Positions 30,001-36,000 of a stretch of DNA of 64,000 bases are shown piece after piece. The stretch lies in assembly GCF_001447785.1 (NCBI RefSeq), contig NW_015174288.1:254262-318261 (forward strand). Reading direction: 5' to 3'. The stretch is from Gekko japonicus (Eukaryota). A program made the position numbers. The first letter of the stretch is position 1. Each line of letters starts with the position of its first letter.

Positions 30001-33000
30001 CTTTTCTGAGTGGTAGGCAGCAGGGAAAAGGAAACAGAAACATTCCAAAATGTGCAGCAGGGGAATGTAAGCTTGGTCTTAATTCAAAGAAGCTCAGATT
30101 GATGGATGAGAATGTGTGTGGTATGCTGAACTTCCCCCAAGCTCTGCTGAATATCAGTTTCTTCTAAAATTAATACACTGTCCTCCTTTTGACTTGAACT
30201 TTCAGACATTACCCACTTGTTTTCATGTGTCTTTTGCATTACACCTGAGAAGATTTAAGAGACCAGGTTCCCATTTGTACAGTGAACCCATAGACATATG
30301 GGATCTGTACAGCCTTTGATGGGGGAATACCCTACTCCTCAGTCTTCTTGTTCCCATCAGATGGTAGTATAAGAAATACAAGCAAGGACCCACAGAAAAG
30401 TCATGTAGAAATCCCCTCAAACTGCTTTTCCCTCTGGCTAATGACAGTCCCCACAGTCACCTTTCTCCATCTCTTTCCTTACACACCTTCTCTCCCCCAG
30501 CACCCCCCCCCCCCCCCCCCCCCGGTCTACCTTCCTCATCACCAGGGGAAGAGACTGGCTGTGGGCTCCCTCCAACCCAAACATGGTCAGTGGTCAGCAC
30601 CCATCTTCTCCAGCAGACATACCCCCCCCAGCAGTGCCCACTGCTTTTTAGGACTACTGAGTCACAGAGTGGACACAGGTTCCCTCTTAGCCCAAATACT
30701 GTAGCTATTCAATACCTGCTTCCTCCAGTTGCTGCTGCCTAATCTTCTGGCAGCCCTTGCCCCAACCAATGCAGTCTGTGGGGATTTGTAAATCCCAGTC
30801 ATCTTCTTCCACTCACTTTTCAGATATTTCTGCAAACCTGAAGATTCATCCATTTTTGCAGAAAAATCCCACATCCTACACATGGCCTTGTTCTGCTTAT
30901 TTATTCTCTCCACATTTTTGGCCATATTGATAATTAGATAACCGTATGCTTTCATAGTTAGAGACTGCATCTGTGCAAGGATGTTTGTTAGGGATGCCAG
31001 CTTTTCTTCTCTCTCCCCCCCCCCCCCCCCCCCAACAGGGTTATTTAAAGCTACCAGATAGGTAGAAATTATTGCTTCCCTTTTCACTTGATCTGTTCCA
31101 TAAAAATATTGGTTGCTCAACTTCTGCTGTTGAGCAGTTGTTTGGAGGTGCAAAGCTCCTCTCCAGAGGAAAAAAAAATCCATACTGATCTTCCCTTCTC
31201 TTTTCAGGGACATCCGCCCCGAGGGCATCCGTCCAGCACACAGTTCGTGGCTGCACCTTTCCTTTGTCTACAATCACTACCTTTTCTTTGCATGCATTCT
31301 TGTGGTGATGCTAGCGATTGGACTCTACCTCCTCCGCCTGCGCCGCATCCACCACCAGCAGCTCCACTCAGCATCACTGGACCTGCTGTGGTTGGCAGAA
31401 GTGGGATCACTGCCAGGCCAGGAACCTGGCATTTGATAACAGAACTACCTCTCAAAGACTGTTCAGTGGCTCTGGCTTTAACAAGCCCCGAAGCTGTGAT
31501 CATTTAGTGTTTTAAACCAGAACTGTGGGGGGGCTCTAGGCTAAAACCAGGCCGTGTCTCCCTTGCCTCTTTGTTTGCAGGAGGAAAAAAAGCCCCACAG
31601 TCACAGTTTTATCCTGTGCTAAAAGCCCCAGCCAGCACAGAATAAAGAAATTGCACATACTATGAAGCAGGGGGGAAAGAAGACAGCAGATTGCTGTACT
31701 CACAGCAGATCTGTAAGCGACCAAAGAGAACTTGATTTACTCAGGAGAAAGAGAAGGAAGGACCTTGTGTTGGCAGGGTCTCAGTCCGATTTTCAGGACC
31801 AAATATCTTCTCCAGTATAGCACCTCTCTTAAGCAAAAAATGGTGCTTGAACTCTGAGGCTAACCCTCTGTTCTCCTGAGTGTTATTTTGATACCTTTTA
31901 TAGGAAGACCAAGAGAAGAAGAGGACCACAAAGACCCTTTTTAGAAAAGGACTTATCATTTGCTGCTATTTTCTGCCTCTTCTCCTACACAAGTGGGAGC
32001 CTAACCACCTCTTGTGCACAGGGAGAGTTTAGATCTCTTTGGAATCCTACATTCCATCTAAATTAAGAATGTTTGCATCTGTTTTCTAGCTCATCTTAAT
32101 TCCACCTTGATTACTTCACCCAGTTCAACTTGTTTTAGTAATACCTAGCCCTTAGAATCAACTGTGGACTAGTTACGTAATTTATCTGTTTTAAAACTTG
32201 AACTACAATGGTCCCAGTTACAGTAGCAATAAACTATTCTAAGTTCTGTAGTCAAGAGTTTCTTCATACCATCAGCTCAGAGAGTTGGCATTCCTCTCCT
32301 GTGTTTTGCAGCAAGGGCAATTCTACATATGGGGAAAATAATGTAACTTTCAACTGTGCACAAGATCACACACTAGAAATTTTATTTTCACAATACAGGT
32401 TTATAGCAGATAAATACACACGTCATCAGTTCAGGGGAGGAGGAGAACCTAGGCAAATACATCTCGGCACAAATGAGGGGAGGGCAGAGGCCTAGTAGGC
32501 TAGCCCCTATTTAAAGAGAAGGGAAGGAGCTTTAGAGAGATTAGTGTGTCAGACTAGGATCAATCACTCTTTGATGAAGCTCACTAGGCAACTTCATGCT
32601 AGTCAACTTCAAAGTTGTGAGGCTAAAAGAAAGGAGAATCATGTTATGTTCCTTGGAGGGAGAGCAGGATAAAATATACTAGATATAATGGGTTTGGTCC
32701 AGGCCTAACTTTCCAATGGTAGAATGAAACTTTCCTGCCTTCCCCTCCCAATGCAGCCTACTGACCTCTAGGAAATGCTGCTTCTGGGGGATAGGAGATC
32801 CTGAGGGATGGCACAAGGGGAATCTGGTTCCAACCCATAATCTCTTGACTAACGAGACTTTACAGAGCTTCCTCTGTAGAGGACAAGATACAACAGTTAA
32901 CCCCCAGCTACTGAGGCAGGACTGTAAGTACTAACTTTCAGGGTCTTTGGAAGGGGTTTTGAAAAGTGGGATGAAAATATTATAATCAAGATCAATTCAG

Positions 33001-36000
33001 ATTGAGAAGATGGAGGGGATACTACAATACATACAACGGGCATATTAAGTACTTGGTCCTAGTGTTGTGGGCCTTTTGGGCTGTAAAATCTGTTTACTTG
33101 GTACTGGAAGGGGGAAAGCATGAAGCTGTCTATATCAGATGAGAACCTAGAAGAGAGAGACAGAAAGAAAGATTCTCAATAACCTGTTAAAAGCCAACCT
33201 GCTGCTCCCTCTCTGGCGTTAAAAGATCTCTTTGTGGGGCAGAAGCTTATCCCATAGAACTGCTAAAAGGTAGGTTATGGCCATGTTTCTTCAACCCAGT
33301 GGCAATGCTATTTCTAGGCATATTTGCCAATGGCCAGAAGCCTGAAGAAAGTAAGAAATCTGGCACAGAAGCTTTCATAAACTGGAAAAACTGATTCTTT
33401 GGGCCGTAATTGATTATGACAGATACACACATGCAGGTAGGTTAATAACGTTTATAAACTTATTTTCGCTCCAGGGTTGGTACCTGTTGAAGCATTCTGC
33501 AGCACCATGGGTCACTCCCACAGGTAACGCACATACCAGATAGTCTCATTCCTCAGTTGTGGTCCGAACAGTGGGTTGGCTTGGGCTAGGATTGCTATAA
33601 GCCAACTGCATGTGAGAGACAGAAGAGTAAGAAGGATATGCATGAGATGGATCAGAAGAATTACCAGTGCTGGAAAATAGGAACTGCCCAGAGGATACCC
33701 CTTCGTAGCAGGCAGTTTCTGGCTACCAAACCTGATTAGAGACCACCTAAGGCTTATTTCAAGGGGCAAAGCCCCAATTCATTATTTATAGGCATATTGT
33801 TAAGGAAAGAATATAACCACTTGAGACCATGACCATTACCTAGTGCAGTAACAGAGTTTTCAAGTAGACATTATGTTGAAGCATGTGGAATAGAACAGTT
33901 TCCCCTTAGCAATGATGCATGCTTTGTGGCAGTCAAAACCTTATGTTGGGATGCACTCCCCCCCCCCCAATTCTTTACCATGCTTTGTCCTAAAGGCATC
34001 ATGCATGAATATACTAAAACAAAGCCACAGGAAAGAGATGTTTGGGAAACTTGATAGGGGAGCAGTTTTTCAGCTGGCAGGGGTATACGATTTGAGATTA
34101 CTTGAAGGGAAAGATGCAGACTTTGTTGAATAAGGAATTGGGAACCAAGGATCAACCTCAGCCACACAGATATGAGAGCACTAACAAGAACAGATCCTTA
34201 GCCTTTCATCCAGGATTTCTTGCTACACCACCAACACCCAACAGCAACCACTGAGTCAAAATACATGACCATAGGTATACTAAAAGTGAAGTAATAGGTA
34301 TTCCTGCTAGGCATAACCAACCCTCTTCCCGTTGATACTCACAAGAGATAACAGCAAATGGCAGTAGTGACCAACATGGTAATAATCACGCTGCAGAGGA
34401 AAGTGAAAAATAAGGGTTAGCAGGACAATGTCCAAAGCATGATTTCTCTGAACCAGGTGAAAATGCTTTACATGTGGAAACACCCCACCCCATCTTATGA
34501 ATAACTGACATTTTAAATTTAAAACAATAAAAGGTATTAATACAAAAATCATACAAATTTACTAGATGGCCTTAGGCCAGTTCTTGCTCTCAGCCCAACC
34601 TACCTCACAGGGTTGCTGTGAGGACACAGTGGAAGACATAAGTGCAAAACTGCTTCAGGTGTCCACTGGGGAGAAAATCAGGGTACAAATATCTAAATAA
34701 ACTTACCTTCCTCCAATGCCTGATAATGCCAAAACATTTTTACCATCTTATGAGTCAGGAAAGGAGAGCATTTTAAAATTTCTGAAGTGATATAAATATA
34801 CCACATTATGGTGACGAGCCTTGTATCTCCAACCGACTCTGGACCTTCAGTAAAATGTGTTTATCATACACAACCTTCCCGGTCCTGAAGCAGAGCAGCA
34901 CACAGAAGGGTTTTTTGCAGGTGGGGTGGTTATTTCTTTGAATGGGACCGCTAGAGGACCCTGAGCCGGGCATGCGCGTGATTATCTCTTTGCCATGATA
35001 ATTAGCGAGCCTGCAATTAGACCGTTTAAGGAGACTCACCCACGGTTGGGCCCTTTGGGCACAAACCAAGGCGCCGCAAATCCCACGAGCCCCCAGAATA
35101 TCGAGAAGAGGATGACAGGTACCGCGAAGCTGTGGGTGGTCATGGCGGGGCTAGGTCGGGCTGAGGAAGTGCAGTCTGGTCGCGGCAGGAGAAAAAGCCT
35201 CAGTGGTTTCCTTCGCCCTCCCAGCAATCCCTTTTTGGTCACGTGGGAAGTCCAGCTAAATCCGTTTCGGAAGCGTTGAGAGCGCTCAGAATCCAGCAGG
35301 CACCGCCCTGATTGGTTAGTGGCGCATCTCTTTTAACCGCCTCCTCTAATAGGCGGAGAGGGCTGGGGCGCGCGATCCCGTTGCGGTTGGACAACAGAGG
35401 GAGTCGGCGAGGAAGAATAAGGACGCTTCCTCGGTTAAATTTTGTTAGATTTACACACACACACACCCTAACAGCCTTACTCAGCCTGAGATTTTTTTTA
35501 AAAAAAGTTCTGTGCCTTTATTATTATAGGGAAGTACTGGCAGGATGAAGGAAATATGAACGTCAGTCTGCATTACTAGGACCGCTGCAGCTTCCTTTTC
35601 ATCCTAATTTTGCATTTATACGTGTTAACAGCAGGCCGCAGGGGAGCACTGCTCCACCAGTCAGGAGCCCAGGGGGTGGCCACATAAGCCCCGCCCCCTG
35701 CTCCCACCAGCCATCAGTTGGGACATGGGGGGGGGGAACTTTCCCCACCTCCTGAGCGCTGGGGTGGTGGCCTTGGACTTGTAGGGGCAATTCCACCTCT
35801 CTCGCAAGAGGTCATTCTGGATCCCCCAGCTCTCCTTCCCAGCTCCTTAAAAAGTTATAGCAGCAGCTGTGACGCCTGCAGGGGCATGGCAAAACGTTCC
35901 CTTGCCTCCTTGAGCACCGGGGTGGTGGCCTTGGACTCGTAGGGGCAAATTCCACCTCTCGCGTGCGGTGCCACTTGGACATCACACGCAAGAGGTCATT

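What the first reader, a model, noticed from the sequence alone, without database searches (positions are those of the whole stretch)
32360..35430. Intact ATP6V0E2 sits inside the NKX2-3/ENTPD7/COX15 block, possibly its ancestral ohnolog position
Seen: a complete 81-aa V-ATPase subunit e gene with three coding exons, canonical splice sites, its own CpG promoter and a poly(A) signal. The introns show it is not a retrocopy. Known: in human, ENTPD7 is directly followed by COX15, ATP6V0E2 is on 7q36, ATP6V0E1 lies near NKX2-5 (5q35), and SLC25A37/ENTPD4 lie near NKX2-6 (8p21). Inference: an ATP6V0E gene next to NKX2-3 mirrors ATP6V0E1 next to NKX2-5. This may be the original whole-genome-duplication position from which the mammalian gene moved. 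Alternatives are a lineage-specific transposition or an additional paralog. The ORF track shows only fragments of this gene, so it is easily missed.
Basis: partly seen in the sequence, partly recalled or inferred. Interest (0 to 1): 0.7.

Follow-up and report, generated by a model that had tools for sequence, protein, structure and literature searches.

The report
V-ATPase subunit e2 gene beside NKX2-3
An intact three-exon gene for the small V-ATPase proton-pump subunit e2 lies between the ENTPD7 and COX15 genes near NKX2-3; the gene is real, but the arrangement is already recorded in a frog and in a published synteny analysis, so it is ordinary.

Summary
On the minus strand at 32,360-35,440 there is a complete 81-codon gene in three coding exons. 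It has GTGAGT donors, pyrimidine-rich CAG acceptors, a CpG-rich promoter and a single AATAAA.

Each exon, searched separately, matches the V-ATPase subunit e family. The Pfam PF05493 matches are colinear. Each exon also scores higher against solved mammalian e2 chains than against e1 chains.

The neighbours are as claimed and more: an NK4-class homeobox gene, an SLC25A28-like gene, an ENTPD7-like gene, e2, COX15 and CUTC. No N run lies between ENTPD7 and COX15.

I could not test the "ancestral ohnolog position" reading on other genomes, because no vertebrate collection was available. Print supports it. Xenopus laevis chromosome 7S co-localises Slc25a28, 6v0e2 and Cox15, while four mammals lack 6v0e2 there (PMC8199184). 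A 2025 paper lists atp6v0e1/2 among the paralogous families in conserved microsynteny around NK4 genes (PMC12019251).

Verdict: real, correctly read and already known. Interest is low. The joined protein was never searched, folded or placed in a tree.

The parts
35144..35440 (-). 5' UTR and CpG-rich, TATA-less promoter of the e2 gene. CCAAT at 35315-35311, GGGCGG at 35308-35303, GTCACGTG at 35238-35245.
   Evidence: CpG o/e 0.88 and GC 0.586 over 35040-35440. Motif positions. GTCACGTG occurs 3 times in the window against 0.46 expected. The transcription start is not mapped.
35040..35143 (-). Coding part of exon 1 (34 codons plus 2 bases), from the ATG to the GTGAGT donor.
   Evidence: P0001. 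Pfam PF05493 profile positions 1-26. PDB e2 chain residues 1-34, E 1.3e-15.
34391..35039 (-). Intron 1 (649 nt), GTGAGT ... pyrimidine tract ... CAG.
   Evidence: Read.
34343..34390 (-). Exon 2 (48 nt: 1 base + 15 codons + 2 bases).
   Evidence: P0002, a stop-to-stop reading that includes intron-side codons. Pfam profile positions 27-43. PDB e2 residues 35-50.
33606..34342 (-). Intron 2 (737 nt), GTGAGT ... pyrimidine tract ... CAG.
   Evidence: Read.
33512..33605 (-). Coding part of exon 3 (1 base + 30 codons + TGA). Holds an N-E-T sequon and an e2-type C-terminus.
   Evidence: P0003. Pfam profile positions 44-61. PDB e2 residues 52-81, E 3.8e-15.
32360..33511 (-). Inferred 3' UTR (about 1.15 kb) with its only AATAAA at 32386-32381.
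   Evidence: The cleavage site is inferred, not shown.
31134..32233 (+). Last coding exon of the ENTPD7-like gene (stop near 31434) and its inferred 3' UTR, with AATAAA at 32228-32233. It converges tail-to-tail on the e2 gene.
   Evidence: ORF. Stop and AATAAA. Other exons match GDA1_CD39.
39602..50700 (-). COX15 gene. The last coding exon ORF is at 39602-39832. Further exons lie near 40.3, 41.4-41.6, 41.8, 42.6-42.8, 43.2-43.5, 43.6-43.8 and 47.8-48.0 kb. A CpG-rich promoter near 50.7 kb is shared with CUTC.
   Evidence: ORFs. Pfam COX15-CtaA on 4 of the 5 exon ORFs tested; the ORF at 47775-47999 had no Pfam match. The exon 1 position is inferred.
13666..17440 (-). SLC25A28-like mitochondrial carrier gene.
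   Evidence: ORFs. Pfam Mito_carr at 126.5 and 45.3 bits. The SLC25A28 name rests on linkage to COX15/CUTC (PMC8199184 Table 1).
3391..6097 (+). NK4-class homeobox gene (NKX2-3 by position). A TN-type motif lies in exon 1 near 3391-3470. The homeodomain exon lies inside the ORF at 5051-6097.
   Evidence: TN-like motif. (Homeodomain, 72.1 bits). (best PDB hits are Nkx-2.5; the hits listed showed no NKX2-3 chain).
52736..57373 (+). CUTC exons, divergent from COX15.
   Evidence: ORFs. Pfam CutC at 78.6 and 46.9 bits.

Best explanation
This is the orthologue of ATP6V0E2. It encodes the 81-residue, two-helix membrane subunit e2 of the V0 sector of the vacuolar H+-ATPase. It is transcribed from its own CpG-island promoter on the minus strand, spliced from three coding exons and polyadenylated about 1.15 kb after the stop.

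It lies tail-to-tail with ENTPD7 and head-to-tail downstream of COX15, inside the NKX2-3 / SLC25A28 / ENTPD7 / COX15 / CUTC block.

This position is the older one. It is shared with a frog, and it is the counterpart of ATP6V0E1 beside NKX2-5 in the paralogous block made by the early vertebrate genome duplications. The mammalian gene on human chromosome 7 is the one that moved.

Shown here: the gene anatomy, the family match, the greater likeness to e2 than to e1, the neighbours, and the uninterrupted sequence.

Inferred: transcription, the protein's role in the pump, orthology (no tree was built), and the direction and timing of the move.
For: Anatomy.

Family: Pfam PF05493 hit colinearly by the three exons. 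PDB subunit e chains are covered at residues 1-34, 35-50 and 52-81.

e2 rather than e1, with identities counted by hand from the alignments:
- Exon 1: 58.4 against 47.8 bits; 26 of 34 against 21 of 34 identical.
- Exon 2: 20.8 against 17.4 bits; 13 of 15 against 12 of 15 identical.
- Exon 3: 56.5 against 50.7 bits; 27 of 30 against 24 of 29 aligned positions identical.
- The tail YVRYLWE resembles e2 YVRFLWE, not e1 YLKYHW.

Block: homeodomain, Mito_carr, GDA1_CD39, COX15-CtaA and CutC exons in the order given.

Continuity: the N runs lie only at 3006-3251, 9032-9067 and 24852-24908.

One copy only in the window.

Age of the position:
- Table 1 of PMC8199184 (passages seen) puts Slc25A28, 6v0e2 and Cox15 on X. 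laevis chromosome 7S. All 4 mammals listed lack 6v0e2 there.
- Human ATP6V0E2 is on chromosome 7 and ATP6V0E1 on chromosome 5 (PMC6276090 table).

Ohnology:
- The NKL paralogon is 2p/8p, 4p, 5q and 10q, with NKX2-3 at 10q24.2 and NKX2-5 at 5q35.1 (PMC2211742).
- The Fig. 1A legend and section text of PMC12019251 list atp6v0e1/2 among the paralogous families at the NK4 loci.
- ATP6V0E1-CREBRF-BNIP1-NKX2-5 lie in one 121-kb chicken interval (PMC12108394), and NKX2-5, BNIP1A and ATP6V0E1 are adjacent in stickleback (PMC5719529).
Against: No expression data exist, so transcription and the junctions are inferred from sequence.

Each exon alone scores below Pfam's whole-protein cut-off of 25 bits (23.9, 14.4, 21.8). 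The joined protein was not scored.

The e1/e2 call rests on only five mammalian PDB sequences (three e2, two e1) and no tree. At six positions the window agrees with e1 rather than e2 (counted from the alignments).

The window's organism is unknown to me, so 'shared between an amniote and a frog' is an assumption.

The Xenopus table reports co-localisation within +/-10 genes, not strict adjacency. The authors call the gene an ATP synthase.

I did not see Fig. 1A of PMC12019251, so I do not know at which locus atp6v0e2 is drawn for each species.

Whether this genome holds another e2 copy elsewhere is unchecked.
Confidence: 0.85

Rival explanations
1. Hidden paralogy. The NKX2-3-linked gene of non-mammals and the mammalian chromosome 7 gene would be different duplicates of an e2-like ancestor that were lost reciprocally. 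This gene would then not be the true orthologue of mammalian ATP6V0E2.
For: Human 7p/q is assigned to a different paralogon (Hox) from 10q and 5q (NKL) in PMC2211742. No tree was built here. The window peptide differs from rat e2 at 13 of 79 compared positions.
Against: All three exons are closer to mammalian e2 than to e1, and the C-terminal tail is e2-type. The Xenopus gene at this position carries the name 6v0e2. Human chromosome 7 is not part of the NKL paralogon named in PMC2211742, so this scenario needs a relocation as well as two losses.
Confidence: 0.06
2. Lineage-specific insertion. A DNA-level duplicate or transposed copy of e2 landed between ENTPD7 and COX15 in this lineage only.
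For: The gene is small (about 2.9 kb) and compact. Degenerate ~200-bp repeats and retrotransposon fragments are nearby. Other copies in this genome could not be looked for.
Against: The same co-localisation with Slc25a28 and Cox15 is tabulated for Xenopus laevis. atp6v0e1/2 is listed as part of the conserved NK4 microsynteny in PMC12019251, whose species set includes chicken, frog, gar and cartilaginous fishes. The gene has its own CpG island and tidy tail-to-tail UTRs.
Confidence: 0.04
3. Assembly artefact or non-functional relic. The gene would be joined to this block by misassembly, or it would be an unexpressed pseudogene that happens to be intact.
For: No read-level or expression data were available. 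The window has three N runs.
Against: No N run lies between 24,908 and the end of the window, so ENTPD7's last exons, e2 and COX15 are in uninterrupted sequence. The reading frame, both donors, both acceptors, the start context and the poly(A) signal are all intact. 66 of 79 compared residues equal rat e2. The same arrangement is seen in a frog.
Confidence: 0.04

Closest known systems
Mammalian V-ATPase subunit e2 (ATP6V0E2), as in PDB 6vq6 chain e and 6xbw chain e
   Same: The length is 81 residues. The match is colinear over residues 1-34, 35-50 and 52-81, with 26/34, 13/15 and 27/30 identities. The C-terminus is e2-type and the N-E-T sequon is present.
   Different: 13 of the 79 compared residues differ. 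The genomic position differs: the human gene is on chromosome 7, and the gene is absent from the SLC25A28-COX15-CUTC block of the 4 mammals tabulated.
Xenopus laevis atp6v0e2 (NP_001165047.1) on chromosome 7S
   Same: It is co-localised with Slc25a28 and Cox15 (PMC8199184 Table 1), the same block as here.
   Different: The sequence was not compared, because it was not available to the tools. The table uses a +/-10 gene window, so strict order and orientation are unknown. CutC is not listed for Xenopus.
ATP6V0E1 beside NKX2-5 (human 5q35.1; chicken GGA13; stickleback chromosome 4)
   Same: It belongs to the same protein family and lies next to an NK4-class homeobox gene, in a block paralogous to this one.
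   Different: The window gene is less like e1 (21/34, 12/15 and 24/29 identities). The intervening genes differ: BNIP1 and CREBRF there, SLC25A28 and ENTPD7 here.
Pfam PF05493 (ATP_synt_H; the family of yeast Vma9p, a name I recall and did not see in a call)
   Same: The three exons cover profile positions 1-61 of 62 in order.
   Different: Each exon alone is below the 25-bit whole-protein cut-off. The joined protein was not scored.

Membership tests
V-ATPase subunit e (Pfam PF05493) | Match to the family profile along its whole length | tested here: met
The exon peptides hit profile positions 1-26, 27-43 and 44-61 of 62 (23.9, 14.4 and 21.8 bits). Each is below the 25-bit cut-off, which is set for whole proteins. 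PDB matches to subunit e chains have E = 1.3e-15, 2.3e-3 and 3.8e-15.
V-ATPase subunit e (Pfam PF05493) | Small protein of about 80 residues with two membrane helices | tested here: inconclusive
   A length of 81 codons follows from the exon coordinates. The peptides align end to end with 81-residue chains of solved V-ATPases. I ran no helix prediction or fold, because the second helix spans the exon 2/3 junction.
V-ATPase subunit e (Pfam PF05493) | Assembly into the V0 sector and need for pump activity | not testable with these tools
   This needs biochemistry or a structure from this organism.
ATP6V0E2 (isoform e2) orthologue | Closer to e2 than to e1 along the whole protein | tested here: met
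   Bits against e2 and e1: 58.4/47.8, 20.8/17.4 and 56.5/50.7. There were only 3 e2 and 2 e1 reference sequences, all mammalian.
ATP6V0E2 (isoform e2) orthologue | Falls in the e2 clade of a vertebrate gene tree | not tested
   There were no non-mammalian sequences to hand, and the joined protein was not to be used.
ATP6V0E2 (isoform e2) orthologue | Same neighbours as the gene named e2 in another non-mammal | tested here: met
   From print, not from genomes: X. laevis chromosome 7S holds Slc25A28, 6v0e2 and Cox15 (PMC8199184 Table 1).
Ohnolog pair within the NK4 (NKX2-3 / NKX2-5) paralogous blocks | Both paralogues lie beside paralogous neighbours on regions assigned to one paralogon | tested here: met
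   Window: an NK4-class homeobox gene, Mito_carr, GDA1_CD39 and e2. e1 lies beside BNIP1 and NKX2-5 in chicken and stickleback. The NKL paralogon includes 5q and 10q. atp6v0e1/2 is listed among the paralogous families. The figure was not seen.
Ohnolog pair within the NK4 (NKX2-3 / NKX2-5) paralogous blocks | Duplication dated to the early vertebrate genome duplications by a tree with invertebrate outgroups | not tested
   No sequences were available and no tree was built.

The most novel reading that the evidence does not exclude
The e-subunit gene linked to NKX2-3 in non-mammals and the mammalian chromosome 7 'ATP6V0E2' may be distinct ancient duplicates that were lost reciprocally. The name ATP6V0E2 would then lump two genes, and mammals would have lost the NKX2-3-linked one outright rather than moved it.
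Probability: 0.05. Interest if true: 0.45.

Novelty: already known. Interest (0 to 1): 0.15.

Why it matters
It matters little beyond annotation. The gene is short and split, so ORF-based tracks miss it, and it should be annotated as ATP6V0E2.

The position adds one more lineage to a synteny pattern already recorded for Xenopus laevis and used in a 2025 reconstruction of the NK4 loci.

The open question is when and how the mammalian gene left this block for chromosome 7. That is a small question in genome-rearrangement history, and it can be answered with public genomes.

Tried and rejected
- Retrocopy: rejected, because there are two introns with canonical sites.
- Second copy or pseudogene in the window: none found (tblastn).
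- Tandem Repeats Finder on 31-40 kb: 0 rows. The repeat finder did find four degenerate ~200-bp copies upstream of the promoter. They are not part of the gene.
- Rfam on the whole window: only a 5S_rRNA hit at 25454-25563 and nothing at the gene.
- Paper searches that gave nothing on the position or ohnology of ATP6V0E2:
  - 'ATP6V0E2 + synteny': 2 papers, irrelevant.
  - '+ COX15': 8 papers; by title and abstract start they are expression, proteomics or disease studies. Their passages were not read.
  - '+ ENTPD7': 1 paper, irrelevant.
  - 'ATP6V0E1 + ATP6V0E2 + duplication': 4 papers, one read, nomenclature only.
  - '+ chicken': 17 papers, two read, no map positions for birds.
  - 'ENTPD4 + ENTPD7 + SLC25A37 + SLC25A28': 0 papers.
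  - 'ATP6V0E2 + ohnolog': 0 papers.
- Not done, by rule: joining the three exon peptides for a search, fold, tree or complex.
- Not done for want of data: any comparison with other vertebrate genomes.
- Supplements were closed. Supplemental Data 2 of PMC12019251 (accessions behind the synteny figure) and the supplementary tables of PMC8199184 may bear on the claim.

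
Full report
**What is there.** The stretch 32,360-35,440 carries a compact gene on the minus strand.
- The coding sequence starts at ATG 35143-35141.
- Coding exon 1 runs 35143-35040 (104 nt) and ends at a GTGAGT donor.
- Exon 2 runs 34390-34343 (48 nt) and ends at a second GTGAGT donor.
- Exon 3 runs 33605-33512 (94 nt, including TGA).
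- Both acceptors are pyrimidine tracts ending in CAG.
- The pieces add up to 81 codons plus the stop, with split codons at both junctions that keep the frame. The introns are 649 and 737 nt.
- The open frame upstream of the ATG holds no earlier ATG, and there is a purine at -3.
- The 400 bases around and upstream of the start are CpG-rich (GC 0.586, CpG o/e 0.88). The first intron has CpG o/e 0.18.
- The promoter region has a CCAAT box, a GC box and a GTCACGTG element, but no TATA box.
- The only minus-strand AATAAA or ATTAAA in the 1.15 kb after the stop is at 32386-32381.

**How the searches were run.** The joined 81-residue protein was never assembled for a search, a fold, a tree or a complex prediction. 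What that leaves open is stated below.

**What it is.**
- The three exon peptides (P0001-P0003) each hit one Pfam family only, PF05493. They hit profile positions 1-26, 27-43 and 44-61 of 62, which is colinear and gap-free. The single-exon scores (23.9, 14.4, 21.8 bits) are each below the 25-bit cut-off, which is meant for whole proteins.
- Against the Protein Data Bank, each exon found the same five sequences and nothing else: three chains named V-type proton ATPase subunit e 2, one named subunit e 1, and one unnamed chain whose aligned segments read the same as the e1 chain's. The hits cover residues 1-34, 35-50 and 52-81 of 81-residue chains.
- In all three exons the e2 chains score higher than e1: 58.4 against 47.8, 20.8 against 17.4, and 56.5 against 50.7 bits.
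- Counted from the printed alignments, identity to rat e2 is 26/34, 13/15 and 27/30. Identity to human e1 is 21/34, 12/15 and 24/29.
- The C-terminal tail is of the e2 type, and the N-E-T sequon in exon 3 is kept.
- The window holds no second copy.

By established knowledge of the V-ATPase (recalled, not tested here), subunit e is a two-helix membrane protein of the V0 sector. The PDB entries that matched are whole V-ATPase structures. A review table describes e2 as having restricted distribution in kidney and brain (PMC6276090, passage seen).

**The surroundings.** Reading all six frames and scanning chosen exon ORFs with Pfam gives this order:
1. An NK4-class homeobox gene on the plus strand. 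A TN-type motif lies near 3391. The homeodomain lies inside ORF 5051-6097, and its best PDB hits are Nkx-2.5.
2. A reverse-transcriptase ORF at 9940-11487.
3. An SLC25A28-like carrier gene on the minus strand, 13.7-17.4 kb.
4. An ENTPD7-like gene on the plus strand. Its last coding exon ends near 31434, and AATAAA lies at 32228-32233.
5. The e2 gene on the minus strand.
6. Four degenerate ~200-bp repeats.
7. COX15 on the minus strand, from 39.6 to about 50.7 kb.
8. CUTC on the plus strand, from about 52.7 kb onward.

ENTPD7 and e2 end tail-to-tail within about 150 bases of each other. The names NKX2-3, SLC25A28 and ENTPD7, rather than their paralogues, rest on linkage to COX15 and CUTC. That linkage is tabulated for human chromosome 10 (PMC8199184 Table 1; NKX2-3 at 10q24.2, PMC2211742). 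They do not rest on a sequence test.

The N runs lie at 3006-3251, 9032-9067 and 24852-24908 only. The joins from ENTPD7's last exons through e2 to COX15 are therefore in uninterrupted sequence. The N runs were left alone.

The answer comes from print.
- Table 1 of PMC8199184 (passages seen) lists genes co-localised within +/-10 genes. For Xenopus laevis chromosome 7S it lists Slc25A28, 'ATP synthase 6v0e2' (NP_001165047.1) and Cox15. For human, gorilla, mouse and cattle it lists Slc25A28, Cox15 and CutC, with no 6v0e2.
- Human ATP6V0E2 is on chromosome 7 and ATP6V0E1 on chromosome 5 at 172.98-173.03 Mb (PMC6276090 table).
- PMC2211742 (passages seen) places NKX2-3 (10q24.2), NKX2-5 (5q35.1) and NKX2-6 (8p21.2) in one Nk4 family, on the NKL paralogon (2p/8p, 4p, 5q, 10q).
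[quoted passage not shown] Its Fig. 1A legend names atp6v0e1/2, slc25a28/37, entpd4/7, bnip1 and crebrf among the families in conserved microsynteny with the NK4 genes. It shows inferred ancestral loci before the first and second genome duplications.
- ATP6V0E1, CREBRF, BNIP1 and NKX2-5 share one 121-kb interval on chicken chromosome 13 (PMC12108394). NKX2-5, BNIP1A and ATP6V0E1 are neighbours on stickleback chromosome 4 (PMC5719529).

They also show that the model is not new.

**Limits.**
- I did not see Fig. 1A or any supplement. I cannot say at which locus atp6v0e2 is drawn in each species.
- The Xenopus table gives co-localisation, not order.
- No tree was built.
- The e1/e2 call uses five mammalian sequences.
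- I do not know the window's organism. No squamate is among the species of PMC12019251.
- Expression is inferred.
- A reciprocal-loss scenario (hidden paralogy) is not excluded, but it needs more events.

**Verdict.** The finding is a real, intact, correctly interpreted gene in a position already recorded for a frog and already used in a published synteny reconstruction. I rate it already known and of low interest. Its practical value is annotation of a short split gene that ORF tracks miss.

Noticed in passing
window 25454-25563 (+): Rfam 5S_rRNA match over the full model (43.6 bits, gathering score 38, E 9.7e-6), inside an intron of the ENTPD7-like gene. It could be a 5S pseudogene or a 5S-derived repeat.
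   Followed up: no
window 35751-36457: Four degenerate direct repeats of about 200 bp (66-93% identity between copies), directly upstream of the e2 promoter. Tandem Repeats Finder reported nothing there.
   Followed up: partly
window 9940-11487 (-) and 62308-63698 (+): Reverse-transcriptase ORFs: RVT_1 at 105 bits for a 516-residue open frame and at 19.7 bits for the second. The translated sequences are similar. They look like copies of one non-LTR retrotransposon family, and one of them is still open over 516 codons.
   Followed up: partly
window 54398-54997 (+): A 200-residue open frame rich in Lys and Glu, inside a CUTC intron, with no Pfam match. From memory it resembles a retrotransposon ORF1, but this was not tested.
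   Followed up: partly
window 14677, 35238 and 50716: GTCACGTG occurs three times in the window against 0.46 expected by shuffling (1 of 100 shuffles reached 3). One copy is in the e2 promoter and one is in the divergent COX15/CUTC promoter. From memory this is the core of the CLEAR/E-box element of lysosomal genes.
   Followed up: partly
window 32228-32386: The inferred poly(A) signals of the ENTPD7-like gene (plus strand, 32228-32233) and of e2 (minus strand, 32386-32381) face each other about 150 bases apart. The two transcripts would end almost back to back.
   Followed up: no
window 3006-3251: An N run lies about 140 bases upstream of the NK4-class gene's first coding exon (TN-type motif near 3391). 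That gene's promoter is therefore partly unreadable. The run was left as it is.
   Followed up: no
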